UHGV virus genome: UHGV-0073937
Strand: one strand, 5' to 3'
DNA: 22,825 nucleotides
Origin: a virus
A program made the position numbers and the translations under genes. Shown here piece after piece: positions 4,701 to 22,059 of this stretch. The first letter of the stretch is position 1; every line of letters begins with the position of its first letter. The notes under the pieces are model-generated. The model did not search any database, was not told where the DNA came from, and saw nothing but the letters and a program-made list of their open reading frames with translations.

Positions 4701-4882
4701 GGGTGGTTGTTGTTTAATTGTTTGGTATATCTAATTGATAAGTAAGGTGAAAATAAAATAAATACAACAACCTTACGATGTGCTTTGATGTCATTAATGT
4801 GAAAAAATTAAATGATATCAAATGGTTTTGTAAAAACACATGGTTGTTGTATCGCTTTTTATCGATGACTTATGGAGAGGAG

Positions 4883-7479: not shown

Positions 7480-8348
7480 AACGAACGCCTGTCCTGATTG
7501 ATGTGAACGGTGTTCCGCTTCGTGAGAGTCTCAGCTACAACGGTGGCGGCGCAGGATTTGGCGGGCAAATGGCGGAGTGGTTGCCACCGGCGCAGAGTGC
7601 CGATGCGGCCCTGCTGCCCGCGTTGCGTCTGGGGAATGCCCGGGCAGATGATCTGGTGCGCAATAACGGAATAGCGGCTAATGCGGTTGCCCTGCATAAG
7701 GATCACATTGTCGGGCATATGTTTCTGATCAGCTACCGTCCGAACTGGCGCTGGCTGGGGATGCGGGAGACCGCAGCAAAAAGCTTTGTCGATGAGGTGG
7801 AGGCGGCCTGGTCGGAATACGCCGAAGGGATGTTTGGCGAGATCGACGTGGAAGGAAAACGCACGTTCACGGAATTTATCCGTGAAGGTGTGGGCGTTCA
7901 TGCGTTTAACGGCGAAATCTTTGTGCAGCCGGTCTGGGATACAGAAACCACGCAGTTATTCCGTACGCGTTTTAAAGCTGTGAGTCCGAAACGGGTGGAC
8001 ACGCCTGGACACGGTATGGGGAACCGTTTTCTGCGGGCCGGTGTGGAGGTCGATCGATATGGCCGTGCCGTCGCGTACCATATCTGTGAGGATGATTTTC
8101 CGTTCTCTGGTAGTGGACGATGGGAACGGATCCCGCGTGAACTTCCCACCGGGCGTCCGGCCATGCTGCATATTTTCGAGCCGGTGGAGGACGGGCAGAC
8201 CCGTGGGGCTAATCAGTTTTACAGCGTCATGGAACGGCTGAAGATGCTCGATTCCCTGCAGGCAACACAGCTTCAGTCGGCCATAGTGAAGGCGATTTAT
8301 GTCTATCATCTCACCGTAGTTGCCCGCATCGTTCGCCAACTCCACTGA
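7476..8348 (+). pseudogene. B: Portal protein (lambda gpB-like) N-terminal fragment, truncated by island insertion at ~8301
   Basis: First ~275 codons collinear with lambda gpB (GNARADDLVRNNG, FEPVEDGQTRGAN, QSAIVKA); after codon AIY the frame reads into unrelated sequence and stops at 8348. Confidence 0.85.
8289..8301. repeat. Left copy of 13-bp imperfect direct repeat (AAGGCGATTTATG) = putative att core (attL)
   Basis: Matches AAGGCGATGTATG at 18579-18591 (12/13); both copies lie exactly at the breakpoint in the portal reading frame. Confidence 0.65.
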
Positions 8349-8424
8349 AACCCTTGCTGCGTCTGGAATGTCGTTTTCCATACTTTTGATGACCGTTCAT
8401 CACCCTTCCAGTTTTTCGCGGTTT

Positions 8425-8478
8425 TGTGTATTGCAATGTGTATTGCAAATTGGCGATCGGGATGGGTGTGTATTGCAA
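8425..8478. repeat. Three copies of TGTGTATTGCAA (candidate integrase arm-type binding sites) upstream of int
   Basis: Perfect 12-mers at 8425-8436, 8437-8448, 8467-8478; two related copies (GTGTATTGCA) at 18483-18506 near other island end. Confidence 0.55.
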
Positions 8479-8496
8479 ATCTCTTGAGGGCTTTTA

Positions 8497-9738
8497 ATGG
8501 CTATTGAAAACAAACTCAGTGACAAACTGTTAAAGAGTCTTGTCGGAAAACGGCAGGACAAACAAAAAACAATAGCGGATGGGCGCGGGTTGTCTGTGCG
8601 TGTAAGCATGGTTGGGGGGATCAGCTTTGTTTTTTACTATCGTCTTGGTGGCAGGGAATCCCCTCCGGTATGGCTTACACTTGGTCGCTATCCTGACATG
8701 TCTCTTGCAACGGCCAGGCGCATGCGTGATCAGTGCCGTGAATGGCTGGCTGAAAATCTGGACCCCCGCAGGCAAATAAAACTTGCTGCCGAAAAAACTA
8801 TGCAACCAGTGACCGTAAGGGATGCGCTGTTTTACTGGTACGACAATCACGCCACAACAGCCAGAAAAGAGCATGAATATTTAATAAAACGATTTGAAAA
8901 GCATATCTTCCCCTATATCGGTGATATGGCTATAGAACAGTGCAAATTACACACATGGCTTACCGTCTTTGACAGGATCAAAAAAAATGCGCCTGTTATG
9001 TCTGGTGCAATTTTTCTTGATATCAAACAGGCGTTGCGTTTTTGTCGCGTCAGGCAATACATCGCGTGCGATCCCTTTGGAGATATTAACGTAAGTTATG
9101 TCGGGGGCTCATCCGGTATAAGGGATCGCGTTCTTAATATCAATGAAACCGCTGATGTATGGTCTTATGCTTACGGTAATAATTTGCTAACTCTGTCATC
9201 AATATATAACCGAAGAATAATGGTTATCTGCCTGGTGTTTGGTTGCCGACAGCAGGAGGCGAGGCTATCCACCTGGGACGAATGGGATTTAAAAAACTGG
9301 GTATGGACAGTCCCAAAAGAGCACAGCAAAAACAAGGAGGCTATAGTAAGGCCTGTTCCTGACGGAATAAAACAATGGATCGTTAATCTTTACGCAGAAA
9401 CAAAAAATCGCGGTTATGTTGTCGGTTGTGCTTTGCAAAGGGCGACAATAACAGGGGCTGCAAACAGAATATGCAGGCGTCTTGGTCATGATACTAATGG
9501 CTTGTGGTGCATACATGATTTCAGGCGCACATTTTCCACTACGCTTAATGATATGGGGGCGGATCCTTATATTGTCGAACTTCTTTTAGGTCATAAAGTG
9601 AAAGGGGTTGCTGGTGTTTACAATAAAAGCAGGCATATAAAGAAAAAACTTGAGGTGCTTAATATGTGGGTTAATTACCTTAATACGATAGCAGGATTTA
9701 ACAACAACGTTATCGAGCTTAATAAAGAGGTGGTGTGA
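8497..9738 (+). CDS. int: Tyrosine recombinase / integrase, P4-type
   Basis: 413 aa; N-terminal arm-binding-like region (GRGLSVRVS...GGISFVFYYR); C-terminal catalytic region with HDFRRTFST...LLGH...GVYNKS; adjacent to island boundary. Confidence 0.9.
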   Translation: MAIENKLSDKLLKSLVGKRQDKQKTIADGRGLSVRVSMVGGISFVFYYRLGGRESPPVWLTLGRYPDMSLATARRMRDQCREWLAENLDPRRQIKLAAEKTMQPVTVRDALFYWYDNHATTARKEHEYLIKRFEKHIFPYIGDMAIEQCKLHTWLTVFDRIKKNAPVMSGAIFLDIKQALRFCRVRQYIACDPFGDINVSYVGGSSGIRDRVLNINETADVWSYAYGNNLLTLSSIYNRRIMVICLVFGCRQQEARLSTWDEWDLKNWVWTVPKEHSKNKEAIVRPVPDGIKQWIVNLYAETKNRGYVVGCALQRATITGAANRICRRLGHDTNGLWCIHDFRRTFSTTLNDMGADPYIVELLLGHKVKGVAGVYNKSRHIKKKLEVLNMWVNYLNTIAGFNNNVIELNKEVV

Positions 9739-9739
9739 T

Positions 9740-9997
9740 ATGGCAATTTATTCTCTTGTTGATGAAAACGATTTGCGCACAATGAAGGACATTGATCGGT
9801 TCATTCGTGAAAAAGAGTGCATAGCACTTACCACGCTGGCAAACTCAACACGCTGGAAAATGGAGCAGGCAGGTAAATTCCCGCGACGTATCAAGATCGG
9901 TGAACGTGCTGCAGGGTATCGACTTTCAGAGGTTCAGGCATGGATCCGTGGTGAGTGGCATCCTGGATGGAAACCTGGAAAAACAAAACAGCAATAA
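9740..9997 (+). CDS. alpA: AlpA-family transcriptional regulator / excisionase-like protein
   Basis: 85 aa; HTH region IALTTLANSTRWKMEQAGKFPRRIKIGERAAGYRLSEVQAWI resembles AlpA/HTH_17; start ATG overlaps int stop (coupled). Confidence 0.7.
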   Translation: MAIYSLVDENDLRTMKDIDRFIREKECIALTTLANSTRWKMEQAGKFPRRIKIGERAAGYRLSEVQAWIRGEWHPGWKPGKTKQQ

Positions 9998-10010
9998 CCA
10001 GTAAATAATG

Positions 10011-10033
10011 CCCCTCATCACGAGGGGTTTTTT
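10011..10033 (+). terminator. Rho-independent terminator (CCCCTC-ATCAC-GAGGGG + T6)
   Basis: Perfect 6-bp GC stem then TTTTTTG immediately after alpA stop. Confidence 0.7.
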
Positions 10034-10053
10034 GTCTATAAGGTAAAAACGCG

Positions 10054-10632
10054 ATGAATAAAAATATTGCCGTGACGGGCAAGGGGTACGCTCGTCCAGT
10101 GAAAAAATTCTGCGATATTCGTGATCTCGTCGTTCTGCGCTTTGATAGTGTGAACGTTCGTGTGGTGTATCTGAACGGCGATCCGTGGTTTGTTGCAAAA
10201 GATGTTTGTGCTGCGCTGGAACTAACCAATTCGCGTACGGCGTTGCAGATGCTTGATGATGATGAAAAGGGAGTAAATTTAACTTACACCCCAGGAGGAA
10301 ATCAGAATATGAGAATTATCTCTGAGTCAGGTTTCTACAAACTAATAGCCCGCAGCCGCAAAGCAACGACGCCTGGCACATTTGCTCATCGTTTCAGTAA
10401 CTGGGTATTCAGAAATGTGATACCAGGTATCAGAAAAACGGGGACTTATGGTATCCCGTGGGGTGCATTACAGGATTTTTCCCGCCGTAAAGAGCAATAT
10501 CAAATAAGTGCCAGCGAGAAGGGGAGAGAGCTACAGGCATGTAAGCGCAAAAAGCGTGAGCTGGAGGAAGAAGAAAAAACGCTGATACGTGAATATCAGC
10601 CTGAGTTTTACTTTGGTAACCGCATTCAGTGA
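10054..10632 (+). CDS. Bro-N domain protein (putative antirepressor-like)
   Basis: 192 aa; N-terminal region (VVYLNGDPWFVAKDVCAALELTNSRTALQMLDDDEKG...RIISESGFYKLIARSRKATT...FSNWVFRNVIP) typical of Bro-N; charged coiled C-terminus. Confidence 0.65.
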   Translation: MNKNIAVTGKGYARPVKKFCDIRDLVVLRFDSVNVRVVYLNGDPWFVAKDVCAALELTNSRTALQMLDDDEKGVNLTYTPGGNQNMRIISESGFYKLIARSRKATTPGTFAHRFSNWVFRNVIPGIRKTGTYGIPWGALQDFSRRKEQYQISASEKGRELQACKRKKRELEEEEKTLIREYQPEFYFGNRIQ

Positions 10633-10661
10633 CAAAACAAAGGCGACCGGGGGCGGTCGCC
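10630..10661 (-). terminator. Hairpin terminator for leftward small-gene operon (GGCGACCG-GGGG-CGGTCGCC; T-rich on minus strand)
   Basis: 8-bp perfect GC-rich stem; minus-strand downstream sequence TTTGTTTTGTC; sits between convergent genes. Confidence 0.55.
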
Positions 10662-10725
10662 AGTGGGAAAACACTAAACATAAGCACGAGGATGATAGCC
10701 GCTATCAGGTTGGTGGGCAATGTGA

Positions 10726-10935
10726 TCAGCCTGGTGGGCGGTTCCTGTTAGCTTTCATTACCCGGGGCTGTTTATTGAGAAACTCATCAAGCGCAAATTT
10801 TGTAGGCGCTGGTTCTGTATTTGGTGGCATTTGTTTAGCGTGTGCCTTTTCTTTCTGGCGTGCAACAATGCTCTGTAAAAGCAATCTTCGTTGTTCTGCG
10901 AAAATCTCTTCAGTGGATAGGTATTTTTTGCTCAT
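10726..10935 (-). CDS. Hypothetical small protein (leftward switch operon, second gene)
   Basis: 69-aa ORF downstream of 10993..11172 on same strand, followed by hairpin terminator. Confidence 0.45.
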   Translation of the reverse strand: MSKKYLSTEEIFAEQRRLLLQSIVARQKEKAHAKQMPPNTEPAPTKFALDEFLNKQPRVMKANRNRPPG

Positions 10936-10992
10936 AGTGCCGACCTGTAAAGCAATGCGCCGGAGTACCTCACACCACAGCGCTGATAGTGA

Positions 10993-11172
10993 TTATTCTT
11001 GCTCTTTAGCCTTGCGTCGCTGGCGGTATTCAACTTCTCGCTTTAATGCTGCTGTTACAAACTGCCCTGTACTTTCACCAGGCATTTTTACCGCCTCAAC
11101 ATTGTTCATAACTTCATGCGGAACCCTTGCCGCAACTGTTTGTGATTTTGCGTTTACTGCTTTTGTCGCCAT
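10993..11172 (-). CDS. Small putative DNA-binding regulator (possible RHH-type repressor), first gene of leftward operon
   Basis: 59-aa ORF derived by manual translation (below ORF-track size cut-off): MATKAVNAKSQTVAARVPHEVMNNVEAVKMPGESTGQFVTAALKREVEYRQRRKAKEQE; diverges from operator repeats. Confidence 0.45.
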   Translation of the reverse strand: MATKAVNAKSQTVAARVPHEVMNNVEAVKMPGESTGQFVTAALKREVEYRQRRKAKEQE

Positions 11173-11222
11173 GTTGTGTACCCCTCACAAAAAACAAATG
11201 CAGTATGCAGGAAAAAAAACAA

Positions 11223-11274
11223 GTGTTCAACACTTGACGTGTTCAACACCTGGGTTTAAATTGGTGTTCAACAC
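11223..11274. promoter_or_regulatory. Operator/promoter region: three perfect copies of near-palindromic 11-mer GTGTTCAACAC with candidate rightward sigma70 promoter
   Basis: Copies at 11223-11233, 11239-11249, 11264-11274; TTGACG (11234-11239) and TTTAAAT (11255-11261) fit -35/-10 with ~16-nt spacer; lies between divergent operons. Confidence 0.65.
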
Positions 11275-11371
11275 CTTGTTGGTGCAAGGTGCAGAAACGA
11301 CGAAACCCGGCAGTGCGCTAACACTAACCGGGCTTCTAACCACCAACGATAGCAACAGTATCGAGGTAGCT

Positions 11372-11575
11372 ATGAGAAATCATACCACACACCCGCAAGG
11401 GCGGGGCTCGCACAACCTGAATAAATACATCTGGCGTTTTATCGCCCTGAGCACCGCACAACCACGCGTAATACACATCGAGGCCGCCAGCGAACAGGAA
11501 GCCCGGCTGCAATCCCCAACTGGCTGCGTGATGATATTCGCCGCCCGTATTCGTCAGGAGGTATGCCGTGCTTAA
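11372..11575 (+). CDS. Small protein, first gene of rightward operon (possibly Icd-like)
   Basis: 67 aa from ATG 11372 with SD GAGG; MRNHTTHPQGRGSHNLNKYIWRFIALSTAQPRVIHIEAASEQEARLQSPTGCVMIFAARIRQE; family assignment from memory only. Confidence 0.45.
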   Translation: MRNHTTHPQGRGSHNLNKYIWRFIALSTAQPRVIHIEAASEQEARLQSPTGCVMIFAARIRQEVCRA

Positions 11576-11753
11576 AACCTTTCGTGTATTTGCTCGTGCG
11601 GTTAACCCACTAGGCCACACAATTGGTATCGCTCAGAACGTGAAGGCTGTTAATGTTCAGACGGCTATTGCTGCGGTGAGAAGCGAATCATCAGAATATG
11701 GCTTATCACAAGTCATTATCTCAGCAGTGTATGAATTAAAAGAGGTGCATTAA
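11568..11753 (+). CDS. Hypothetical protein
   Basis: 61-aa ORF; start overlaps upstream stop (coupled), part of tightly packed operon. Confidence 0.4.
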   Translation: MLKTFRVFARAVNPLGHTIGIAQNVKAVNVQTAIAAVRSESSEYGLSQVIISAVYELKEVH

Positions 11754-11944
11754 TGCAGGAAATTACATTACACGAAGCCGCTGAACGTGCGCACCAGACA
11801 GAAATTGTTTGCCGCCTTCTTGAGTTATACCCGAACAAAATTACAGATGCTGATATATCCGCGCTGGCGAGCCTACTGGCGCGCCTTTCGGGAAGTGTCG
11901 CTAGTTTCCTGATTGAGGAAGAAAGTAAGCTGGTGGGGGATTAA
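11753..11944 (+). CDS. Hypothetical protein
   Basis: 63-aa ORF; ATG overlaps previous stop (TAATG). Confidence 0.4.
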   Translation: MQEITLHEAAERAHQTEIVCRLLELYPNKITDADISALASLLARLSGSVASFLIEEESKLVGD

Positions 11945-12166
11945 ATGAATACAGAACGAGAAGTCTTTTTTAAATTGTTAGCATGTGCAGAGAGTTCATT
12001 AACTTTAAATAATTCAGCAAAAGCAATATTAAATATGTGGCTTGATTGCATAAATGACAATGAAGATGCAAATATTGCTTATGGCCTGTTGTCACTTATT
12101 GATGAAGCAGCAGAGAAACTTAATGACACAATAAATAGTGCCCTGCTATCAAATAAGTCGAGTTAA
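11945..12166 (+). CDS. Hypothetical protein
   Basis: 73-aa ORF; start overlaps previous stop; AT-rich codon usage suggests separate origin. Confidence 0.4.
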   Translation: MNTEREVFFKLLACAESSLTLNNSAKAILNMWLDCINDNEDANIAYGLLSLIDEAAEKLNDTINSALLSNKSS

Positions 12167-12183
12167 GTCGAAGAATAAATAAT

Positions 12184-12483
12184 ATGGAAATGAAAAATTC
12201 TGGCTTTATTGCCAGCGGCCCCGCTCGGCCTGAATTTATGAACGGCGATATTTACCGCGATAAATACGGCGGCACGGTAACGATTAAAGGCGTGGCAGAA
12301 CGGCGCATCACTTACCGCCGTGAGGGGTATAGCTATGACTGCGTGATGCCTGTTTATCAGTTCCGGCGTGATTTTTCCCTGGTATATGCCGCACCCCGCA
12401 GTAAGCCCATCAGCAGGGAAAAAGCGCGGGGAAACATCCAGAAAATGAAAAGCATGATTAACGCATTCAGGGGCAAAAAATGA
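12184..12483 (+). CDS. Hypothetical protein
   Basis: 99-aa ORF; stop overlaps start of replication protein (ATGA). Confidence 0.45.
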   Translation: MEMKNSGFIASGPARPEFMNGDIYRDKYGGTVTIKGVAERRITYRREGYSYDCVMPVYQFRRDFSLVYAAPRSKPISREKARGNIQKMKSMINAFRGKK

Positions 12484-14231
12484 AACTGGCACCGAACTTA
12501 AAAAAACAGCCACGCGACAGACTGACAGAGGTAATCATCTTTGCAGGTAGTGATGCGTGGAGCCATGCGAAAGAGTGGCAGGAATGGGCGGGTAAACATA
12601 TTGCCGCCGACGATGTGCCGCCTGTCGTGCTGGCTGATGAGCAACTGAAAAACATCACCGATTACCGGATCATTGATGAAGATCGTCAGTGTGTGCGTGT
12701 TTACCGCGCAGGACATATCACAGAGCACAGCATGACGCAGATTGTTACGTTACTGGCTGTGGCTGGAGTGAAGACCGTACACGAATACGCGGGGATTACT
12801 GACACCAGCCCAGTGGATTTATCCGACCAGTTGCCGCGACTCAAAGAGGAATGCGAGCGTGGGGAAAGTCTGGTGCTTAATCTTCCGACGAAGCAAAAGG
12901 CGCAACTTTCACAGATGGCAGACAGTGAACGTGCACAACTACTTGCCGATCGCTTTGATGGTGTGTGTGTTCATGCAGAAAGTGAAATCGTCCACGTATG
13001 GCGCGGCGGGGTATGGTGTCCGGTCAGCACAATGGAGCTGAGCCGCGAAATGGTGGCGATCTATTCAGAGCACAGGGCCACGTTCAGCAAACGTGTAATC
13101 AATAACGCCGTGGAAGCGTTAAAAGTTATTGCCGACCCCATGGGGGAGCCGTCCAGTGATTTGCTACCGTTCACTAATGGTGTGCTTAACCTGAAAACGG
13201 GAGAATTTTCTCCGCACTCGCCGGAGCACTGGAGCACCACGCACAATGGCATTGAGTACACGCCACCAGTAGCAGGGGAAAACATCCGCGATAATGCGCC
13301 AAATTTCCATAAATGGCTTGAACATGCTGCAGGAAAAGACCCGCGCAAGATGATGCGTATATGTGCCGCGTTATACATGATTATGGCGAACCGCTACGAC
13401 TGGCAGATGTTCATTGAGGCCACCGGAGACGGGGGAAGCGGAAAGAGCACATTTACCCATATTGCCACCCTGCTTGCTGGCAAACAGAACACCGTAAGCG
13501 CAGAGATGACATCACTCGATGATGCAGGTGGGCGCGCGCAGGTTGTCGGGAGTCGTCTTATCGTCCTTGCCGATCAGCCGAAATATACGGGTGAAGGCAC
13601 TGGCATCAAGAAAATCACGGGAGGCGATCCCGTCGAAATTAACCCGAAATATGAGAAGCGATTCACGACGATAATAAGGGCGGTGGTACTGGCGACCAAT
13701 AACGACCCTATGATCTTTACCGAACGGGCCGGAGGTGTGTCACGCCGTCGGGTGATTTTCCGGTTCGACAACATTGTAAGGGAGGACGAAAAAGACAAGG
13801 AATTACCGGAAAAGATAGCGGCAGAAATCCCCGTAATTATCCGCCGCTTGCTGGCTAACTTTGCTGACCCTGAAAAGGCACGAGCTTTACTACTGGAACA
13901 GCGAGACGGTGATGAAGCTCTGGCAATAAAGCAGCAAACGGATCCGGTTGTTGAGCTTTGCGCGGCGCTGGAGTTTCTGGAGGAAGCTCGTGGGCTAATG
14001 ATGGGCGGTGGTGGTGACTCCGTGAAGTACACGACCAGAAACAGCCTTTACCGTGTCTATATGGCCTTCATGGCATACACAGGAAAGGGGAAATGTTTGA
14101 GCGTGAATGAGTTCGGAAAGGCTATGAGGTCAGCGGCGAAAGTTTACGGATATGAATATATTACTCGAAAAGTTAAGGGAGTCACGCAGACCAACGCAAC
14201 GACTACTGATGATTGCGATGCGTTTTTATAA
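12480..14231 (+). CDS. Replication protein: primase C-terminal/D5-N domain with SF3-type P-loop NTPase (pri-rep-like)
   Basis: 583 aa; Walker A GDGGSGKST, downstream Walker B-like RLIVLADQ; architecture typical of P4-alpha/PICI pri-rep proteins; followed by iterons. Confidence 0.8.
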   Translation: MKLAPNLKKQPRDRLTEVIIFAGSDAWSHAKEWQEWAGKHIAADDVPPVVLADEQLKNITDYRIIDEDRQCVRVYRAGHITEHSMTQIVTLLAVAGVKTVHEYAGITDTSPVDLSDQLPRLKEECERGESLVLNLPTKQKAQLSQMADSERAQLLADRFDGVCVHAESEIVHVWRGGVWCPVSTMELSREMVAIYSEHRATFSKRVINNAVEALKVIADPMGEPSSDLLPFTNGVLNLKTGEFSPHSPEHWSTTHNGIEYTPPVAGENIRDNAPNFHKWLEHAAGKDPRKMMRICAALYMIMANRYDWQMFIEATGDGGSGKSTFTHIATLLAGKQNTVSAEMTSLDDAGGRAQVVGSRLIVLADQPKYTGEGTGIKKITGGDPVEINPKYEKRFTTIIRAVVLATNNDPMIFTERAGGVSRRRVIFRFDNIVREDEKDKELPEKIAAEIPVIIRRLLANFADPEKARALLLEQRDGDEALAIKQQTDPVVELCAALEFLEEARGLMMGGGGDSVKYTTRNSLYRVYMAFMAYTGKGKCLSVNEFGKAMRSAAKVYGYEYITRKVKGVTQTNATTTDDCDAFL

Positions 14232-14239
14232 AAAATGGC

Positions 14240-14480
14240 AATGGTTATCTACCTTGTCTACCTGACTGAAAGAAAATACTTTTATTTCAATGTATTAATG
14301 CAGGTAGATAACTATTTTTCACTGTCTACCTGTTATCTACCTTATCTACCCATTTTTGTAGACAGGTAAGGAGACGGGTAGAGATGAGGTAGACAGCTAT
14401 TTGGGGCTGTCTACCTCCCTGAAACCCGCGCCATTACTGGCCTGATAACTAATCAGGTAGACAAGGTAGACAAGGTGGTG
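14240..14480. repeat. Iteron array (>=10 copies of GGTAGACA / TATCTACC in both orientations) = putative origin of replication
   Basis: e.g. TTATCTACCTTGTCTACC, CAGGTAGATAAC, CTGTCTACCTGTTATCTACCTTATCTACC, GGTAGACAAGGTAGACAAGG; non-coding, directly downstream of rep gene. Confidence 0.75.
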
Positions 14481-14520
14481 GCGCACAAAAAACTTTTTAA
14501 ACGAGGGGGTAAAAATAAAA

Positions 14521-14778
14521 ATGCACACATCAGGAAAACTGAACAAACATATAAAGCCACATTATCGCGCCCTTGATATGGCTGAACACTGGCTAAGGGT
14601 GGCGATTAAGGCAATAGACCGCAACGCCGGGGAAGGATACGCGAAAGCACATCCCGAACTGATAAGCGCATTCATGACAACGGCGGCTGCAAACTTTGCC
14701 GCGCTGACCGAACGGGAGATTGCCGAAGCGGAGGAAGTGACAACCATCAATATTAAGTCCGGAGAGCAGGCAGCTTGA
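14521..14778 (+). CDS. Hypothetical protein
   Basis: 85-aa ORF; stop overlaps SSB start. Confidence 0.45.
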   Translation: MHTSGKLNKHIKPHYRALDMAEHWLRVAIKAIDRNAGEGYAKAHPELISAFMTTAAANFAALTEREIAEAEEVTTINIKSGEQAA

Positions 14779-15224
14779 CGGCGCAAATAGCAGCTTACGG
14801 GCGGCTGGTGGACGACCCACAGGTAAAACATACCAGCAAGGGAGCACCCATGACACTGGCACGGATGACGGTATCTTTGCCATGCAGCCAGGCAGATGAC
14901 GGAACGGCGACGATGTGGTTATCTGTCCTGGCGTTTGGCAGACAAGCCGACGCGCTGGCAAAGCATCACAAAGGCGAACTCCTGAGCGTGGCGGGTAATA
15001 TGCAGGTGAGCCAGTGGAGCGGACAGAACGGGGAAACGCGGCAGGGCTGGCAGGTTATCGCAGACAGCGTAATCAGTGCCAGAACGGTGCGACCGGGCGG
15101 CAAAAAAGGTCAACAGGGGCAGGCTACTGATGCACTGAACAGAGCAAAACAACAGGCAGATCAGCAAGGAAGCCATCCACCAGTGGGAGATAATGAGCAA
15201 TGGGGAGATGATATTCCGTTTTAA
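14775..15224 (+). CDS. ssb: Single-stranded DNA-binding protein homologue (SSB-like, TTG start)
   Basis: 149 aa; OB-fold-like N-terminus; Gln/Gly-rich linker; C-terminal acidic tip GDDIPF matching the SSB DDDIPF tail; SD GGAGAG 8 nt upstream of TTG. Confidence 0.75.
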   Translation: MTAQIAAYGRLVDDPQVKHTSKGAPMTLARMTVSLPCSQADDGTATMWLSVLAFGRQADALAKHHKGELLSVAGNMQVSQWSGQNGETRQGWQVIADSVISARTVRPGGKKGQQGQATDALNRAKQQADQQGSHPPVGDNEQWGDDIPF

Positions 15225-15243
15225 ATTCTGCAAACAAAAAGAT

Positions 15244-15268
15244 GCCGGAAAAAAATAGATTTTCCGGC
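15244..15268. terminator. Hairpin (GCCGGAAAA...TTTTCCGGC), possible terminator after ssb
   Basis: 9-bp inverted repeat; T-run better on minus strand so orientation ambiguous. Confidence 0.4.
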
Positions 15269-15435
15269 ATGCTACATAAATCCCGACCAAAGGAAGTAAA
15301 TACATTAACACGAATTATCAGCACTGAAGTTGTCACGGCATATTTTATACAACATTGCACTTGGTTGCATGTATTCGCATAGCAGACATCGGTAATAGAA
15401 TATATTCACAATTATTTGTAATGAATGTAAAGAGG

Positions 15436-16482
15436 ATGAGTATGGTTGATTTATATTCGCCTACACAGCTTGTGCAGGTGGCTAATGCTGAAGATGTGCA
15501 AAAAAAATTAAATGCGTTGTTTACCAGTTTGTTTTTCACTCGCTCGGTAATGTTTGAATCGAGAGACATTATTCTTGATACGATCGACGATCCAAATATC
15601 CCGATCGCGGCGTTTTGCTCTCCTATGGTGGGCAGTAAAGTTTCACGAGATGAGGGATACGAATCAAAAACAATTCGCCCTGGCTATATGAAACCGAAAA
15701 GCAGCATTGATCCAAATAAGTTAGCTGTGCGCCCTGCTGGTGTATCACCTGAACAATACAATGCTTTTGGGGCGCGTAATATTAAAGTTAAACAGGCGAT
15801 TGTAAATCAGGCTAAAGCTATACGTGCACGTATTGAATGGCTTGCTGTTCAGGCAATCACAACGGGGAAAAATATCATTGAGGGCGATGGTATTGAACGT
15901 TATGAACTGGACTGGAATATAAAACCACAAAATATTATCACGCAGTCTGGCGGTGCTGAGTGGTCAGGTAAGGATAAAGAAACTTTTGATCCAAATGATG
16001 ATATTGAGAGCTACGCAGAATTTAGTGAGGGCGTCACTAATATCATCATTATGGGCGGTAATGTATGGAAGAAATACCGTTCATTCAGAGCGATAAAAGA
16101 GGCTCTGGATACCCGCCGTGGTTCTAATTCCGAACTGGAAACGGCCCTTAAAGACCTTGGTGATTCGGTGAGTTTTAAAGGGTATATGGGCGATGTTGCG
16201 ATTGTTGTTTACAGCGGACGTTATACCGACGAGGACGGAACTGAAAAACATTTCCTTGATCCTGATTTGATGGTGCTTGGCAATACGGCTCTTCAGGGGA
16301 TTGTCGCCTATGGCGGTATTCAGGATCCGGAGCTAATCCGAATGGGGCTGACTAAAGCCGAACTTGCACCGAAAAACTATATTGTGCCTGGTGATCCGGC
16401 TATTGAATATGTGCAGACACATTCAGCACCACAGCCAATACCGGCCCGCATCAATCGTTTTGTTACCGTTCGCATTGGCTAA
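15436..16482 (+). CDS. Major capsid protein, divergent lambda gpE homologue (island-encoded)
   Basis: 348 aa; collinear similarity with lambda E across C-terminal two-thirds (NIITQSGGAEWSGKDKETFDPNDDIE, DTRRGSNSELETALKDLG, YMGDVAIVVYSG, LMVLGNTA, VPGDPAIE); start MSMVDLY parallels lambda MSMYTTA; start could be 15442. Confidence 0.85.
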   Translation: MSMVDLYSPTQLVQVANAEDVQKKLNALFTSLFFTRSVMFESRDIILDTIDDPNIPIAAFCSPMVGSKVSRDEGYESKTIRPGYMKPKSSIDPNKLAVRPAGVSPEQYNAFGARNIKVKQAIVNQAKAIRARIEWLAVQAITTGKNIIEGDGIERYELDWNIKPQNIITQSGGAEWSGKDKETFDPNDDIESYAEFSEGVTNIIIMGGNVWKKYRSFRAIKEALDTRRGSNSELETALKDLGDSVSFKGYMGDVAIVVYSGRYTDEDGTEKHFLDPDLMVLGNTALQGIVAYGGIQDPELIRMGLTKAELAPKNYIVPGDPAIEYVQTHSAPQPIPARINRFVTVRIG

Positions 16483-16491
16483 GGGGGAGCA

Positions 16492-16833
16492 ATGGCTACT
16501 CATTACACTGAACTCATGGCTGGCACTGAAGCACTGGTGACTACGCTGGGGATATTTTCAGCTAATAAAGGGGTAATTCCTGCATTTACGCCACTGATGC
16601 AGGAAGATGCAACAGGTGCACTGGTGGTATGGGATGGTTCGAGCGTAGGTAAAGCGGTTTATGTTTCCGCTGTACAAATCGACACAGCGAAAAAAACACA
16701 GGCACAGGTTTATAAGACAGGTGTTTTAAATGTTGATGCTCTGAACTGGCCTGAGTCTGTAAAAGAACTGTCGGCAAAGGTTGCCGCGTTTGTTGGCTCA
16801 GGTATTTCTGTTCAGCCGCTGGCTCGTGTGTAA
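16492..16833 (+). CDS. Head decoration protein, divergent lambda gpD homologue (island-encoded)
   Basis: 113 aa; VVWDGSSVGKAVYVSAVQIDT...YKTGVLNVDALNWPES parallels lambda [22 protein letters not shown]...[16 protein letters not shown]; strong SD AAGGGGGAG. Confidence 0.75.
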   Translation: MATHYTELMAGTEALVTTLGIFSANKGVIPAFTPLMQEDATGALVVWDGSSVGKAVYVSAVQIDTAKKTQAQVYKTGVLNVDALNWPESVKELSAKVAAFVGSGISVQPLARV

Positions 16834-16844
16834 AGGGGGATACA

Positions 16845-17228
16845 ATGCAGAATCATTACAATGACCTTAAGCCAATTGCCGAAATGATGTATCCGGATCC
16901 AGCAGTAGAGGAATTAAAGGCTATTGCTGACAAAATGCGTTTAAGTGAACGCCTTGTTGATATGAATCAGGTGATGGAACTTACTACCCTTAGCCGTCGC
17001 ACATTGCTAAACCTTGAGGCTCGCGGAGAGTTCCCCGAACGCGTACAGGTTACGGAAGGGCGTAAGGCCTGGTATTTAAGTGAAGTGATCGACTGGATAA
17101 ACAATATTCCTCGATCTTCTGAATATTGCCGCGTACCTGTCCCAAAAAAGCCAGATGCGGCGCTATGCCTCAAGATTGAGCGTGTACGTCGCAATGCACG
17201 GGATGGTCGCTATAAGTTGATTGGTTGA
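16845..17228 (+). CDS. AlpA-like HTH domain protein immediately upstream of island cos
   Basis: 127 aa; central HTH resembling AlpA/HTH_17 (MNQVMELTTLSRRTLLNLEARGEFPERVQVTEGRKAWYLSEVIDWI); strong SD. Confidence 0.55.
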   Translation: MQNHYNDLKPIAEMMYPDPAVEELKAIADKMRLSERLVDMNQVMELTTLSRRTLLNLEARGEFPERVQVTEGRKAWYLSEVIDWINNIPRSSEYCRVPVPKKPDAALCLKIERVRRNARDGRYKLIG

Positions 17229-17254
17229 TGAAATTAGGGCCCGTTCTGGCTGGC

Positions 17255-17330
17255 GGGTCCTTTCCGGCGATCCGGTAGGCTACGGGGCGGCGACCTTGCG
17301 GGTTTTCGCTATTTATGAGCCTTTTTCGGG
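17255..17330 (+). other. cos: Lambda-type cos site 2 (island cos): cosN GGGCGGCGACCT at 17285-17296
   Basis: ~65 bp (17255-17319) near-identical to 4625-4688 including cosQ/cosN; downstream cosB-equivalent sequence differs from cos 1. Confidence 0.8.
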
Positions 17331-17429
17331 TGCTGGTGGTGGTTTTGTTGTTCGCTCTATCTCTATGAATAAAAAGGAAAAGATAAAGCCAATACACCAA
17401 CCTGAAACATTACTTAAGTGGGGATATTG

Positions 17430-17972
17430 ATGAAATCGCACCTGATGAACAAAAAAAACATGGCGCAAAGCTGCCGTGTAAGTGCGACAGCGTTCGACAA
17501 GTGGGGAGTGACTCCCGTTGAACGTAAAGGCCGCGAGGCGTTTTATGATGTTGCCAGCGTAATAGACAATCGGGTTAGCAATGCAATTAACCAGATTACA
17601 GACGACAAAGGCGAGATTGATGATGATGAACTCCTACGAGTCAGGATCAGATTGCTGACAGCACAGGCAGAGGCGCAGGAGCTTAAAAACGAGCGCGAAC
17701 GCGGCGACGTTATTGATACAGCGTTTTGTATATACGTGCTTTCAAAATTGGCGAGTCAGATTTCTTCAATCATGGACAGCCTGCCGCTTGCCATGACAAG
17801 GAAGTTTCCCGACATGAAGCCGTCTATGCTGGATGGACTGAAAAAAGAAGTTATCAGAGCCTGTAACGCATGCGCAAAACTTGACGAAAACATACCGCTG
17901 ATGCTGTCCGATTATCTGATGGAAACTGCCGGAAACGTACCGGATAAGTTGCAGCCGAATAAAGATAAGTAA
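17430..17972 (+). CDS. Terminase small subunit, divergent Nu1-like (island-encoded)
   Basis: 180 aa from ATG 17430; homologous to 4883..5389 product and lambda Nu1 (ATAFDKWGVTPVERKGREAFYDV; AFCIYVLSKLASQISSIMDSLPLAMTRKFPDM) but clearly divergent. Confidence 0.85.
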   Translation: MKSHLMNKKNMAQSCRVSATAFDKWGVTPVERKGREAFYDVASVIDNRVSNAINQITDDKGEIDDDELLRVRIRLLTAQAEAQELKNERERGDVIDTAFCIYVLSKLASQISSIMDSLPLAMTRKFPDMKPSMLDGLKKEVIRACNACAKLDENIPLMLSDYLMETAGNVPDKLQPNKDK

Positions 17973-17983
17973 CGTAGTACGCT

Positions 17984-18286
17984 ATGACTGAATCCGAAAT
18001 ACTGCGATTAATCCGCCGTGCTTGTGGAATCAGCAAGCAGCATGACGAACAGGCCACGCAGCCGGACAGCGTGACCGCAGATAATTATGTGCGTGTAGTG
18101 GCTGAGGTGATGCGCCGTGACGGTATTGAGCTTAACGGCGTGGATATGCGCAACATACGAACAAGAGTCCTTGAGTTGCTGGCATATCGTCGCCGTAATG
18201 ATGATTCAGCCCACCAGCCAAATCAGCACAGCAACGACAGAATAGCCCGACACAGAAAAACCACGAATATGGGGTTTTTGTTATGA
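17984..18286 (+). CDS. Hypothetical protein (last island gene)
   Basis: 100-aa ORF; Arg-rich; no recognised motif. Confidence 0.4.
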   Translation: MTESEILRLIRRACGISKQHDEQATQPDSVTADNYVRVVAEVMRRDGIELNGVDMRNIRTRVLELLAYRRRNDDSAHQPNQHSNDRIARHRKTTNMGFLL

Positions 18287-18482
18287 CATGGTCATGATGA
18301 CCACTCATACAAAACAGGTAAAGCCCACCAGCCTGATTAAAGGTTAACCGGAAAAAAGCCAGGTATCCAATCTCGATATGGGGATCCCTATATCGACATT
18401 AACGCCCACTAAAACTGTGCATATATGCATAGAAAAAGCATCCACCAGCTTTATGACGGATGCCGCTCATCTTATAAATAAT

Positions 18483-18506
18483 CGTGTATTGCAGTGTGTA
18501 TTGCGA
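18483..18506. repeat. Two copies of GTGTATTGCA-type repeat near right island end (candidate arm sites)
   Basis: CGTGTATTGCAGTGTGTATTGCGA; same motif as 8425-8478. Confidence 0.5.
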
Positions 18507-18578
18507 CTCCTTTAAACGATAGGTCTGAGCATTCGTAATGTACTGTTTTTAAATTTTATTTTTTCCTGTCTTTTCATA

Positions 18579-18591
18579 AAGGCGATGTATG
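18579..18591. repeat. Right copy of 13-bp direct repeat (AAGGCGATGTATG) = putative att core (attR)
   Basis: 12/13 match to 8289-8301; portal reading frame (KAMYAATIESEL) resumes exactly here. Confidence 0.65.
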
Positions 18592-19336
18592 CCGCCACCA
18601 TTGAGAGTGAGCTGGATACGCAGTCAGCGATGGATTTTATTCTGGGCGCGAACAGTCAGGAGCAGCGGGAAAGGCTGACCGGCTGGATTGGTGAAATTGC
18701 CGCGTATTACGCCGCAGCACCGGTCCGGCTGGGAGGCGCAAAAGTGCCGCACCTGATGCCGGGTGACTCACTGAACCTGCAGGCTACTCCGTGTTTGAGC
18801 AGTCACTGCTGCGGTATATCGCTGCCGGGCTGGGTGTCTCGTATGAGCAGCTTTCCCGGAATTACGCCCAGATGAGCTACTCCACGGCACGGGCCAGCGC
18901 GAACGAGTCGTGGGCGCACTTTATGGGGCGGCGAAAATTCGTCGCATCCCGTCAGGCGAGTCAGATGTTTCTGTGCTGGCTGGAAGAGGCCATCGTTCGC
19001 CGCGTGGTGACGTTACCTTCAAAAGCGCGCTTCAGTTTTCAGGAAGCCCGTAGTGCCTGGGGGAACTGCGACTGGATAGGCTCCGGTCGTATGGCCATCG
19101 ATGGTCTGAAAGAAGTTCAGGAAGCGGTGATGCTGATAGAAGCCGGACTGAGCACCTACGAGAAAGAGTGCGCGAAACGCGGTGACGACTATCAGGAAAT
19201 TTTTGCCCAGCAGGTCCGTGAAACGATGGAGCGCCGCGCGGCTGGTCTTAAACCGCCCGCCTGGGCGGCTGAGGCATTTGAATCCGGGCTGCGACAATCA
19301 ACAGAGGAGGAGAAGAGTGACAGCAGAGCTGCGTAA
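18579..19336 (+). pseudogene. B: Portal protein (lambda gpB) C-terminal fragment, additionally frameshifted near 18767-18790
   Basis: MYAATIESELDTQSAMDFILGANSQEQRERLTGWIGEIAAYY... then frame change; second frame continues VFEQSLLRYIAAGLGVSYEQL... to the overlap with C; matches lambda gpB C-terminus. Confidence 0.85.
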
Positions 19337-20636: not shown

Positions 20637-20645
20637 GGGATGTTT

Positions 20646-20978
20646 ATGACGAGCAAAGAAACCTTTACCCATTACCAGCCGCTGGGCAACAGTGACCCGG
20701 CTCATACCGCAACCGCGCCCGGCGGATTGAGTGCGACAGCGCCTGCAATGACCCCGCTGATGCTGGACACCTCCACCCGTAAGCTGGTTGCATGGGATGG
20801 CACCACCGACGGTGCTGCTGTTGGCATTCTGGCGGTTGCTGCTGACCAGACCAGCACCGCGCTGACGTTCTACAAGTCCGGCACGTTCCGTTATGAGGAT
20901 GTGCTCTGGCCGGAGGCTGCCAGCGACGAGACGAAAAAACGGACCGCGTTTGCCGGAACGGCAATCAGCATCGTTTAA
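20646..20978 (+). CDS. D: Lambda gpD head decoration protein
   Basis: 110 aa [27 protein letters not shown]... near-identical to lambda D. Confidence 0.95.
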
Positions 20979-20996
20979 CCTTACCCTTCATCACTA

Positions 20997-21021
20997 AAGG
21001 CCGCCTGTGCGGCTTTTTTTA
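20997..21021 (+). terminator. Hairpin + T-run between D and E (GGCCGC-CTGT-GCGGC + T7)
   Basis: GC stem followed by TTTTTTT; may act as attenuating terminator or RNA stability element. Confidence 0.5.
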
Positions 21022-21033
21022 CGGGATTTTTTT

Positions 21034-22059
21034 ATGTCGATGTACACAACCGCCCAGCTGCTGGCGGCAAATGAGCAGAAATTTAAGTTTGATCCGCTGT
21101 TTCTGCGTCTCTTTTTCCGTGAGAGCTATCCCTTCACCACGGAGAAAGTCTATCTCTCACAAATTCCGGGACTGGTAAACATGGCGCTGTACGTTTCGCC
21201 GATTGTTTCCGGTGAGGTTATCCGCTCCCGTGGCGGCTCCACCTCTGAATTTACGCCGGGATATGTCAAACCCAAGCATGAAGTGAATCCGCAGATGACC
21301 CTGCGTCGCCTGCCGGATGAAGATCCGCAGAATCTGGCGGACCCGGCTTACCGCCGCCGTCGCATCATTATGCAGAACATGCGTGACGAAGAGCTGGCCA
21401 TTGCCCAGGTCGAAGAGATGCAGGCAGTTTCTGCCGTGCTTAAGGGCAAATACACCATGACCGGTGAAGCCTTCGATCCGGTTGAGGTGGATATGGGCCG
21501 CAGTGCGGCGAATAACATCACGCAGTCCGGCGGCACGGAGTGGAGCAAGCGTGACAAGTCCACGTATGACCCGACCGACGATATCGAAGCCTACGCGCTG
21601 AACGCCAGCGGTGTGGTGAATATCATCGTGTTTGATCCGAAAGGCTGGGCGCTGTTCCGTTCCTTCAAAGCCGTCAAGGAGAAGCTGGATACCCGTCGTG
21701 GCTCTAATTCCGAGCTGGAGACAGCGGTGAAAGACCTGGGTAAAGCGGTGTCCTATAAGGGGATGTATGGCGATGTTGCCATCGTCGTGTATTCCGGACA
21801 GTACGTGGAAAACGGTGTCAAAAAGAACTTCCTGCCGGACAACACGATGGTGCTGGGGAACACTCAGGCACGCGGTCTGCGTACCTATGGCTGTATTCAG
21901 GATGCGGACGCACAGCGCGAAGGCATTAACGCCTCTGCCCGTTACCCGAAAAACTGGGTGACCACCGGCGATCCGGCGCGTGAGTTCACCATGATTCAGT
22001 CAGCACCGCTGATGCTGCTGGCTGACCCTGATGAGTTCGTGTCCGTACAACTGGCGTAA
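21034..22059 (+). CDS. E: Lambda gpE major capsid protein
   Basis: 341 aa MSMYTTAQLLAANEQKFKFDPLFLRLFFRESYPF... near-identical to lambda E. Confidence 0.95.
   Translation: MSMYTTAQLLAANEQKFKFDPLFLRLFFRESYPFTTEKVYLSQIPGLVNMALYVSPIVSGEVIRSRGGSTSEFTPGYVKPKHEVNPQMTLRRLPDEDPQNLADPAYRRRRIIMQNMRDEELAIAQVEEMQAVSAVLKGKYTMTGEAFDPVEVDMGRSAANNITQSGGTEWSKRDKSTYDPTDDIEAYALNASGVVNIIVFDPKGWALFRSFKAVKEKLDTRRGSNSELETAVKDLGKAVSYKGMYGDVAIVVYSGQYVENGVKKNFLPDNTMVLGNTQARGLRTYGCIQDADAQREGINASARYPKNWVTTGDPAREFTMIQSAPLMLLADPDEFVSVQLA

What the first reader, a model, noticed from the sequence alone, without database searches (positions are those of the whole stretch)
14775..15224. Island-encoded SSB homologue with a conserved DDIPF C-terminal tip and TTG start
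The ORF has an OB-fold-like N-terminus, a Gln/Gly-rich linker and ends in ...GDDIPF, the motif host SSB uses to recruit partner proteins. It is translationally coupled to the upstream unknown gene and uses a TTG start. A satellite-encoded SSB could support island replication or compete with host SSB partner proteins.
Basis: partly seen in the sequence, partly recalled or inferred. Interest (0 to 1): 0.45.

Follow-up and report, generated by a model that had tools for sequence, protein, structure and literature searches.

The report
Phage-satellite copy of bacterial SSB
This is an ordinary, already-annotated single-stranded-DNA-binding protein gene in the replication module of a known type of phage satellite lodged inside a prophage's portal gene, and its unusual TTG start is a one-base mutation private to this copy.

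Summary
The ORF at 14775-15224 (+) is real and encodes a 149-aa bacterial-type SSB. It passes the curated cut-offs of Pfam PF00436 and TIGR00621. Its predicted OB fold matches only solved SSBs. It keeps three of the four E. coli ssDNA-stacking aromatics and ends in a family-conserved aromatic-x-D-x-IPF tip. It lies directly downstream of a P4-alpha-like helicase/origin-binding gene and a cluster of ten TRTCTACC iterons, inside a ~10.3-kb helper-embedded PICI. That satellite splits a lambdoid prophage portal gene at the published site B:Phage_portal_2:241. The same module (small protein plus SSB, 4-nt overlap) recurs in HE-PICIs, classical PICIs and capsid-forming PICIs with three replicase types. 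About 27% of complete E. coli genomes carry a homologue, always annotated SSB, and the HE-PICI paper already lists SSB as a replication-zone gene. The TTG start is not a design feature: 40 of 42 related loci have ATG, and no complete E. coli genome has the TTG version, against 143 with ATG. The conserved feature is the ATGA start/stop overlap. The most likely role is an accessory SSB for satellite replication that recruits host replisome proteins through its tail. This is untested, and the gene appears dispensable. Already known; low interest.

The parts
14775..15224 (+). ssb gene of the satellite (149 aa plus stop)
   Evidence: ORF list; Pfam PF00436, TIGR00621 and phrog_44; fold search returns only SSBs in the top 50; dN/dS 0.08-0.24 for the OB domain
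14775..14778 (+). TTGA start/stop overlap with the upstream gene (ancestrally ATGA)
   Evidence: Sequence. 40 of 42 related loci have ATG at this codon and at least 13 have the +1 TGA overlap. The TTG probe gives 0 hits and the ATG probe 143 genomes. Alignment A4.
14761..14766 (+). Shine-Dalgarno-like GGAGAG, 8-10 nt upstream of the start, inside the end of the p85 gene
   Evidence: Sequence; conserved in N1420, mutated to TGAGAG in FDAARGOS_1296
14787..15071 (+). OB-fold ssDNA-binding domain (residues 5-99). W48, F54 and W81 correspond to E. coli W54, F60 and W88.
   Evidence: Pfam envelope; alignments with E. coli SSB; AF2 topology b1-b2-b3-helix-b4-b5
15081..15194 (+). Linker, residues 103-140: predicted disordered, modestly G/Q-rich, with the motif ATDALNRAKQQ
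   Evidence: pLDDT below 50 over 102-121 and 126-149; composition; alignment
15195..15221 (+). C-terminal tip EQWGDDIPF (SSB-Ct-type motif)
   Evidence: Tips among 120 homologues: GDNIPF 45, GDGIPF 16, GDDIPF 15 and others; D145 and F149 invariant
14521..14778 (+). p85, an 85-aa protein of unknown function (phrog_1231), the upstream partner gene
   Evidence: phrog_1231 E 2e-47; 160 clusters, Escherichia/Shigella/Citrobacter only; 70% identical in the O157:H7 PICI; helical hairpin model with no fold match
14246..14472 (.). Iteron cluster: 10 copies of TRTCTACC in both orientations around an AT-rich stretch. Putative satellite origin of replication.
   Evidence: All 10 window matches lie here, against 0.57 expected; repeats; GC 0.36; iterons recur and co-vary with the replicase in relatives; the paper states the ori lies downstream of pri
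12480..14231 (+). pri: SF3 helicase plus a P4-alpha-like winged-helix origin-binding domain. No primase catalytic domain was detected.
   Evidence: Pfam D5_N, DUF5906 and Pox_D5; TIGR01613 104.2 bits, just under the 108.7 cut-off; PDB 1ka8 E 3e-7 and 7ola; PHROG primase families matched only from about profile position 350
15242..15270 (.). 11-bp-stem hairpin just after ssb, A-run before and T-run after on the opposite strand. Possible end of the replication operon.
   Evidence: Scan. It was scored as a terminator on the minus strand only.
8289..8296 (+). attL identity block AAGGCGAT, inside the prophage portal gene
   Evidence: Sequence; same block as published for B:Phage_portal_2:241 HE-PICIs; the portal Pfam match stops at profile position 242
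18579..18586 (+). attR identity block AAGGCGAT; the portal reading frame resumes here
   Evidence: Sequence and translation
8497..9738 (+). Satellite tyrosine integrase
   Evidence: Pfam Arm-DNA-bind_3 and Phage_integrase

Best explanation
The gene encodes a genuine bacterial-type SSB belonging to the replication module of a helper-embedded phage-inducible chromosomal island (HE-PICI). Proposed mechanism: when the lambdoid helper is induced, the satellite's rightward operon is transcribed (integrase, AlpA, Bro/Icd zone, pri, origin, p85, ssb). Pri, an SF3 helicase with a P4-alpha-type winged-helix domain, binds the TRTCTACC iterons and opens the adjacent AT-rich DNA. The satellite SSB is made by ribosomes reinitiating at the 4-nt overlap with p85 and coats the exposed single strands. 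Its acidic ...W-G-D-D-I-P-F tail recruits host proteins that read the SSB C-terminus (Pol III chi, DnaG primase, PriA and others), so a host replisome can work on the satellite origin. Shown here: SSB identity, conserved ssDNA-contact residues and tail, position next to an iteron cluster and the replicase, conservation of this arrangement across satellite types, and purifying selection. Inferred: ssDNA binding, oligomeric state, partner recruitment, co-transcription, and the contribution to replication. It is probably an accessory rather than an essential factor. In this copy the ATG->TTG mutation probably lowers expression.
For: SSB identity. Functional residues and tail conserved in 120 homologues and across genera. 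Purifying selection on the OB domain (dN/dS 0.08-0.24). Ten iterons confined to 14246-14472, immediately upstream. The order replicase-iterons-(small ORF)-SSB recurs with three replicase types, and the iterons co-vary with the replicase. Pri matches the P4 alpha origin-binding domain 1ka8. P4 alpha domain organisation: PMC2777425. Tommasini et al. 2023 place SSB with Primase/DUF5906 in the PICI replication zone, next to mapped origins: PMC10111431. No close relative in 50,697 phage records, so the clade belongs to islands. From my own knowledge: P4 replication in vitro needs host SSB and Pol III but not DnaA/B/C/G, and the E. coli SSB tail binds chi, DnaG, PriA, RecQ and ExoI.
Against: There are no experimental data on any PICI SSB in the searchable literature. 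SSB is optional: only 2 of the 7 visible published gene profiles contain it, and the paper lists only int, alpA and pri as essential for PICI transfer. Host SSB is available anyway. All three closest copies carry a lesion in this module: the TTG start here, a frameshift in N1420, and truncated p85 plus IS66 in pri in FDAARGOS_1296. This suggests individual copies are dispensable. E. coli W40 and the tetramer-interface H55 are not conserved, so binding mode and oligomeric state could differ. No sigma-70-like promoter was found for the pair, so its expression timing is unknown.
Confidence: 0.6

Rival explanations
1. Decaying or weakly expressed copy. The family's function is as described above, but in this window the gene is a poorly translated remnant, because its ATG has mutated to TTG in a satellite stuck inside a defective helper.
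For: TTG is absent from all other copies. The helper portal gene has a 22-nt frameshifting deletion in addition to the insertion. Sister copies also carry lesions. An internal ATG at 14850 with a good AAGGGAG Shine-Dalgarno could give a truncated product lacking beta-1.
Against: TTG is a legitimate E. coli start codon (my own knowledge). The SD and the 4-nt overlap are intact, so coupled reinitiation remains possible. The rest of the ORF is intact and 99.3% identical to an ATG-started copy. All other satellite genes checked are full length.
Confidence: 0.2
2. Competitor or decoy. The satellite SSB is primarily an interference or takeover factor. Its host-like tail titrates SSB-interacting proteins, or it forms mixed tetramers with host SSB, diverting replication and repair factors from helper or host DNA to the satellite.
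For: The tail mimics E. coli SSB (aromatic-x-D-x-IPF) and is conserved. The OB domain is only about 25% identical to host SSB and lacks H55, which is compatible with a separate oligomer carrying the same tail. Satellites typically interfere with their helpers (PMC10111431).
Against: No direct evidence. The position between the origin and the late genes, and co-variation with replication modules, fits replication better. A pure decoy would not need conserved ssDNA-stacking residues under purifying selection.
Confidence: 0.1
3. Counter-defence or protection factor. The SSB shields satellite ssDNA intermediates from host nucleases, or modulates defence systems that sense foreign SSBs or ssDNA.
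For: Only general precedent from my own knowledge: plasmid leading-region SSBs, and phage SSBs acting as triggers of some defence systems. Satellites are hot spots for defence and anti-defence genes (abstract of PMC11846896).
Against: Nothing in the locus points to defence. The neighbours are replication and capsid genes. The gene sits in the replication zone in every element examined.
Confidence: 0.05
4. Primase subunit. The SSB-like protein pairs with a polymerase-type enzyme to make primers, as in the Pol-SSB primases of Bacillota mobile elements.
For: Pri here has no detectable primase catalytic domain. Pol-SSB primases exist on mobile elements (PMC10061031).
Against: That system is defined by an A-family polymerase partner, and no satellite ORF scanned has any polymerase domain. 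This protein is a full-length canonical SSB with linker and SSB-Ct tail, passing TIGR00621. The precedent is limited to Bacillota.
Confidence: 0.02

Closest known systems
SSB genes of gram-negative PICIs / HE-PICIs ('Replication zone' family SSB; Tommasini, Mageeney & Williams 2023, PMC10111431). RefSeq proteins such as WP_001588501.1 and WP_000126640.1.
   Same: Same gene family, same position after Primase/DUF5906 and the origin, and same satellite architecture (Integration, Bro, Replication and Late zones). The insertion site B:Phage_portal_2:241 with att block aaggcgat is identical. 99.3% nucleotide identity to the FDAARGOS_1296 copy.
   Different: Only the start codon (TTG instead of ATG) and a few substitutions. 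The window combines an EC28-like integration end with an N1420-like replication module.
Escherichia coli chromosomal SSB (PF00436 / TIGR00621)
   Same: OB fold with the helix between beta-3 and beta-4. W54, F60 and W88 equivalents present. Disordered linker. Acidic tail ending D-D-I-P-F with an aromatic at position -7.
   Different: Only about 25-28% identical. 149 aa against 178 aa. W40 is replaced (the L23 loop is 3 residues shorter, with an invariant P-C). H55 is replaced by Leu. The linker is 38 aa and less Gly-rich, with a conserved ATDALNRAKQQ motif. Calculated pI is 6.9 against 5.4.
Satellite phage P4 replication system (alpha protein plus ori iterons, using host SSB)
   Same: A satellite replicon built on an SF3 helicase with a C-terminal winged-helix origin-binding domain (1ka8 match) that recognises octamer iterons next to its gene. 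By analogy it depends on SSB function and the host polymerase (my own knowledge).
   Different: P4 alpha carries its own DnaG-type primase domain and P4 relies on host SSB. Here no primase domain is detectable and the satellite brings its own SSB.
SSBs encoded by plasmids and temperate phages (for example the F-plasmid leading-region Ssb and lactococcal phage SSBs)
   Same: A mobile-element-borne extra copy of a canonical SSB with an SSB-Ct-like tail. Weak sequence matches to annotated phage SSBs.
   Different: At most about 34% identical to any SSB in 50,697 phage records. Plasmid hits above 60% identity are PICI-like elements or chromosomal fragments rather than conjugative leading regions.

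Membership tests
Bacterial SSB (Pfam PF00436, NCBIfam TIGR00621) | Sequence matches the family profile above the curated cut-off | tested here: met
   PF00436 51.9 bits (cut-off 26), profile positions 4-101 of 104. TIGR00621 61.5 bits (cut-off 53.95), positions 7-165 of 165.
Bacterial SSB (Pfam PF00436, NCBIfam TIGR00621) | OB fold (five-stranded barrel with a helix between strands 3 and 4) | tested here: met
   The AF2 model has strands 2-11, 16-19, 25-36, 44-54, helix 55-62, strands 69-82 and 88-103. pLDDT is 66-83 in the domain but only 60.5 overall. The top 50 Foldseek PDB hits are all SSBs, E about 3e-8, TM(target) up to 0.76.
Bacterial SSB (Pfam PF00436, NCBIfam TIGR00621) | Aromatic residues that stack on ssDNA (E. 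coli W40, W54, F60, W88) | tested here: met
   W48, F54 and W81 align with W54, F60 and W88 and are invariant in 32 family members. W40 is not conserved, with Gln in its place.
Bacterial SSB (Pfam PF00436, NCBIfam TIGR00621) | Disordered linker followed by an acidic C-terminal tip ending in Pro-Phe (SSB-Ct) | tested here: met
   Residues 102-149 have pLDDT below 50. The tip is EQWGDDIPF. D-x-IPF is found in the large majority of 120 homologues, and D145 and F149 are invariant.
Bacterial SSB (Pfam PF00436, NCBIfam TIGR00621) | Homotetramer (or dimer) assembly and high-affinity ssDNA binding | not testable with these tools
   Needs biochemistry or a multimer prediction. The E. coli interface residue H55 is Leu here.
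Helper-embedded PICI (HE-PICI), site class B:Phage_portal_2:241 | Integrated inside, and co-oriented with, a prophage late gene that is thereby split | tested here: met
   Portal N-part 7476-8348 (profile positions 2-242). Portal C-part resumes at about 18587 (profile 308-354 detected from 18791). All satellite genes are on the + strand, like the late operon.
Helper-embedded PICI (HE-PICI), site class B:Phage_portal_2:241 | attL/attR identity block 'aaggcgat' at portal profile position ~241 | tested here: met
   AAGGCGAT at 8289-8296 and 18579-18586. The published block for Eco14781.11.B_Phage_portal_2_241 and others is 'aaggcgat'.
Helper-embedded PICI (HE-PICI), site class B:Phage_portal_2:241 | Four ordered zones: Integration (Int, AlpA), Bro, Replication (Primase/DUF5906/SSB), Late | tested here: met
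   Int 8497-9738, AlpA 9740-9997, Bro-N 10054-10632, Icd-like, DUF4222, Pri 12480-14231, SSB, capsid E-like 15439-16482, decoration D-like 16492-16833, Nu1-like TerS 17418-17972.
Helper-embedded PICI (HE-PICI), site class B:Phage_portal_2:241 | Integrase belongs to the HE-PICI integrase clade | tested here: inconclusive
   No phylogeny was made. The attL-integrase junction is 99.8% identical to that of a portal-embedded satellite in E. coli EC28, and 64 complete genomes share it.
Helper-embedded PICI (HE-PICI), site class B:Phage_portal_2:241 | Helper-dependent induction, excision, replication and packaging | not testable with these tools
   Experimental property. The helper portal here also has a 22-nt deletion.
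Pol-SSB primases of mobile elements (Rice 2023) | [quoted passage not shown] | tested here: not met
   No polymerase domain in any satellite ORF scanned against Pfam, NCBIfam or PHROGs. Definition from PMC10061031.

The most novel reading that the evidence does not exclude
The conserved p85-SSB pair is not a simple replication helper but a takeover module. The satellite SSB would form its own oligomer and display a host-type SSB-Ct tail. Together with the Escherichia-specific helical protein p85, it would re-route host SSB-interactome proteins (chi, DnaG, PriA, RecQ, ExoI) onto satellite DNA and away from the helper phage. That would add to helper interference and substitute for the missing primase domain of Pri by recruiting DnaG.
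Probability: 0.1. Interest if true: 0.5.

Novelty: already known. Interest (0 to 1): 0.15.

Why it matters
Mostly as a correct annotation. It confirms that the window holds a helper-embedded PICI with a complete replication module: helicase/origin binder, iteron origin, and SSB. The one open biological question is why so many enterobacterial satellites (about 27% of complete E. coli genomes carry a homologue) keep their own SSB with a host-like partner-recruiting tail when host SSB is abundant. Nobody appears to have tested this. An answer could show how satellites with primase-less SF3 helicases assemble a replisome, or how they compete with their helper. That is a modest question and would not shift the field.

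Tried and rejected
1. TTG as a conserved regulatory feature: rejected. ATG is found in 40 of 42 loci, and there were 0 TTG against 143 ATG probe hits.
2. Internal ATG at 14850 as the true start: rejected. The Pfam and TIGR matches and the invariant MTAQIAAYGRL N-terminus lie upstream of it.
3. Phage origin of the gene: no deposited phage has a close relative.
4. 'Plasmid' copies as evidence of autonomous replication: the 32.6-kb E. coli record carries chromosomal genes around a cf-PICI and is probably a chromosomal fragment. The Klebsiella 22.9-kb record is a different element.
5. Function of p85: no hit in Pfam, NCBIfam or the PDB by sequence. The model is only a helical hairpin with no fold match. 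It stays unknown.
6. p85 as a universal SSB partner: rejected. The profile finds it only in Escherichia loci.
7. Pol-SSB primase idea: rejected, because there is no polymerase partner.
8. P4-like immunity RNAs (C4/isrK) in the satellite: no Rfam hit at gathering threshold.
9. The first literature search with loose terms returned only irrelevant SSB papers.

Full report
OBSERVATION. The TTG overlaps the TGA stop of an 85-codon ORF (14521-14778) in the sequence cTTGAc, and a GGAGAG Shine-Dalgarno-like element lies at 14761-14766. The product ends in EQWGDDIPF.

IDENTITY. The protein is a bacterial-type SSB by every test available.
- Pfam PF00436 scores 51.9 bits (cut-off 26; residues 5-99 cover profile positions 4-101 of 104).
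- NCBIfam TIGR00621 scores 61.5 bits (cut-off 53.95) and aligns through to the last residue. PHROG phrog_44 'single strand DNA binding protein' gives E 1e-34.
- A sequence search of the PDB returns 24 SSB entries among its 25 matches.
- An AlphaFold2 model built on 32 family members has the OB-fold order of strands with a helix at 55-62 and a low-confidence tail from residue 102. Overall pLDDT is only 60.5, but 66-83 within the domain.
- The top 50 Foldseek matches to the model in the PDB are all SSBs.

Against E. coli SSB the OB domain is about 25% identical. The ssDNA-stacking residues W54, F60 and W88 correspond to W48, F54 and W81, which are invariant in the family. W40 and the tetramer-interface residue H55 are not conserved. 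The tail motif aromatic-x-D-x-I-P-F is conserved. The family is under purifying selection: dN/dS is 0.08-0.24 for the OB domain in pairs that have diverged.

START CODON. This is the main correction. In 40 of 42 related loci from Escherichia, Klebsiella, Enterobacter, Leclercia, Serratia, Pectobacterium and other genera, the codon at this position is ATG, often in an ATGA overlap with an upstream ORF. I used 41-nt probes centred on the codon, so that every 28-nt megablast seed must span it. The TTG version finds nothing in 5,426 complete E. coli genomes, and the ATG version finds 143. All alignments of the gene to E. coli genomes begin at query position 2. A three-way alignment with the two closest copies shows A->T at the first base of the codon as the only difference there. 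TTG is nevertheless the only start that preserves beta-1 of the OB fold; the next in-frame ATG, at 14850, would remove 25 residues. The conserved feature is the 4-nt start/stop overlap. Each of the three closest copies has a different lesion in this module: TTG here, a 1-nt deletion in an A-run in N1420 (annotated 'frameshifted'), and a premature stop in p85 plus an IS66 insertion in pri in FDAARGOS_1296.

CONTEXT. The window is the late region of a lambdoid prophage: lysozyme, Rz-like, Nu1, gpA, portal, S49 protease, D, E, FI. A satellite of about 10.3 kb has inserted into the portal gene. The portal N-part (7476-8348) stops at Pfam profile position 242, and the reading frame resumes after 18586. 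An AAGGCGAT block lies at both junctions (8289-8296 and 18579-18586). [quoted passage not shown] Their supplement lists 11-kb E. coli HE-PICIs of site class B:Phage_portal_2:241 with the identity block 'aaggcgat'. The satellite shows their four zones:
- Integration: Int, AlpA.
- Bro: Bro-N, Icd-like.
- Replication: DUF4222, Pri, p85, SSB.
- Late: E-like capsid, D-like decoration, a second AlpA, Nu1-like TerS.

That paper explicitly assigns 'Primase, SSB and DUF5906' to the replication zone, next to mapped origins. Sixty-four complete E. coli genomes share the portal|integrase junction, and E. coli EC28 has the same layout including the small-protein/SSB pair. A 96%-identical replication/late module sits in the capsid gene of a prophage in strain N1420.

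ORIGIN AND REPLICASE. The 290-bp spacer between pri and p85 contains all ten TRTCTACC matches in the window, in both orientations around an AT-rich core (0.57 expected by chance). Pri matches the winged-helix origin-binding domain of P4 alpha (PDB 1ka8, E 3e-7) and an SF3 helicase core. It aligns to the large phage primase families only from about profile position 350, so no primase catalytic domain is detectable. P4 alpha combines primase, SF3 helicase and a winged helix (PMC2777425).

The order replicase-iterons-small ORF-SSB recurs in four settings: HE-PICIs (L001, L043, L047), a chromosomal PICI of O157:H7 with a RepA-family helicase (L044), a capsid-forming PICI with HK97-type head genes (L045), and a Klebsiella element with a Zn-binding primase-helicase (L046). 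The iteron sequence changes with the replicase (TRTCTACC, AAAGTGAGG, ACGTCTACC/ACCTCTACC, CATCTACC), whereas the SSB stays.

p85 is 70% identical in the O157 element. Its family is confined to Escherichia, Shigella and Citrobacter, and its profile finds no counterpart upstream of the SSB in other genera. Its model is a two-helix hairpin with no fold match.

DISTRIBUTION. DNA-level homologues of the gene occur in 1,457 of 5,426 complete E. coli genomes, with up to six per genome, and are annotated 'single-stranded DNA-binding protein'. 705 protein clusters match, and all the named ones are called SSB. No record among 50,697 phage genomes has a relative above about 34% identity.

MECHANISM. The best-supported reading is an accessory SSB for satellite replication. 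After helper induction, Pri binds the iterons and unwinds the origin. The SSB, translated by coupling to p85, coats the single strands, and its E. coli-type tail recruits host replisome proteins. The identity, the conserved residues and tail, the genomic position and its conservation are shown here. Binding, oligomeric state, partner recruitment and the benefit to replication are inferred. Against an essential role: SSB is absent from several published PICI gene profiles, only int, alpA and pri are listed as essential for PICI transfer, and lesions are frequent in individual copies. Rival readings are a decaying copy, a competitor for host SSB partners, a protection or counter-defence factor, and a primase subunit. 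They are listed with their tests in the rival-explanations section. The primase-subunit idea fails because the defining A-family polymerase partner is absent. No functional study of a PICI SSB was found.

VERDICT. The gene, its family and the satellite type are all already annotated or published. Novelty: already known. Interest: low.

Noticed in passing
window 8289-18586 (att blocks 8289-8296 and 18579-18586): The whole satellite is embedded in the portal gene of a lambdoid prophage. This is the published HE-PICI configuration, site class B:Phage_portal_2:241. 64 complete E. coli genomes share the junction. A sister satellite with a 96%-identical replication/late module sits in the capsid gene of a prophage in strain N1420.
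   Followed up: yes
window ~18780-18800 (portal C-terminal part): Apart from the satellite insertion, the portal gene has a 22-nt deletion relative to intact phage portals (747 nt against 769 nt). This shifts the frame near ...DSLNLQ|..YSVFEQ, so the helper would stay portal-defective even after the satellite excised.
   Followed up: partly
window 14246-14472: Ten TRTCTACC iterons in both orientations around an AT-rich core, found nowhere else in the window: the putative satellite origin. In related elements the iteron sequence changes with the replicase type.
   Followed up: yes
window 8425-8477 and 18484-18504: GTGTATTGCA repeats just inside both satellite ends, three at the left and two at the right. 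They may be integrase arm-type sites, or the 'doubled DNA motif' that the HE-PICI paper reports near attP.
   Followed up: partly
window 12480-14231: The gene labelled 'primase' has an SF3 helicase and a P4-alpha-like winged-helix domain but no detectable primase catalytic domain. Its first ~150 residues match only phrog_2850 (unknown function). Priming may depend on host DnaG.
   Followed up: partly
window 14775; L001 9376-9824; L043 2993-7988: The three most similar copies of the p85-SSB module each carry a different lesion: ATG->TTG here, a 1-nt deletion in an A-run in N1420, and a premature stop in p85 plus IS66 in pri in FDAARGOS_1296. This suggests relaxed selection in individual resident copies.
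   Followed up: yes
window 14521-14778: p85 (phrog_1231) is a conserved two-helix protein with no detectable homologue of known function. It is confined to Escherichia, Shigella and Citrobacter satellites and always overlaps the SSB start by 4 nt.
   Followed up: partly
window 15439-16833 and 17418-17972 compared with 20640-22059 and 4778-5389: The satellite carries diverged paralogues of the helper's capsid E (42% identical), decoration protein D and small terminase Nu1 (46% identical), but no portal, protease or large terminase. It is therefore neither a minimal PICI nor a full capsid-forming PICI.
   Followed up: partly
window 15135-15176 (SSB residues ~117-130): The SSB linker contains a semi-conserved, possibly helical motif (ATDALNRAKQQ) rather than pure low-complexity sequence. 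It is deleted in the 136-aa variants of the family.
   Followed up: no
window 2291-2706: Rfam cspA thermoregulator hit (113.7 bits) in the prophage region, next to a GnsAB-family gene at 3242-3508. This is a prophage-borne cold-shock gene leader.
   Followed up: no
window 10589-11575: The mechanical 328-aa ORF matches Icd-like / repressor families only in its last ~90 residues. In related satellites this region is annotated as short Icd-like genes plus an opposite-strand YlcI/YnfO gene, so the long ORF is probably over-extended.
   Followed up: no
window 15242-15270: An 11-bp-stem hairpin immediately after ssb, flanked by an A-run and a T-run. It was scored as a terminator only on the minus strand and may mark the boundary between the replication and late zones.
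   Followed up: no
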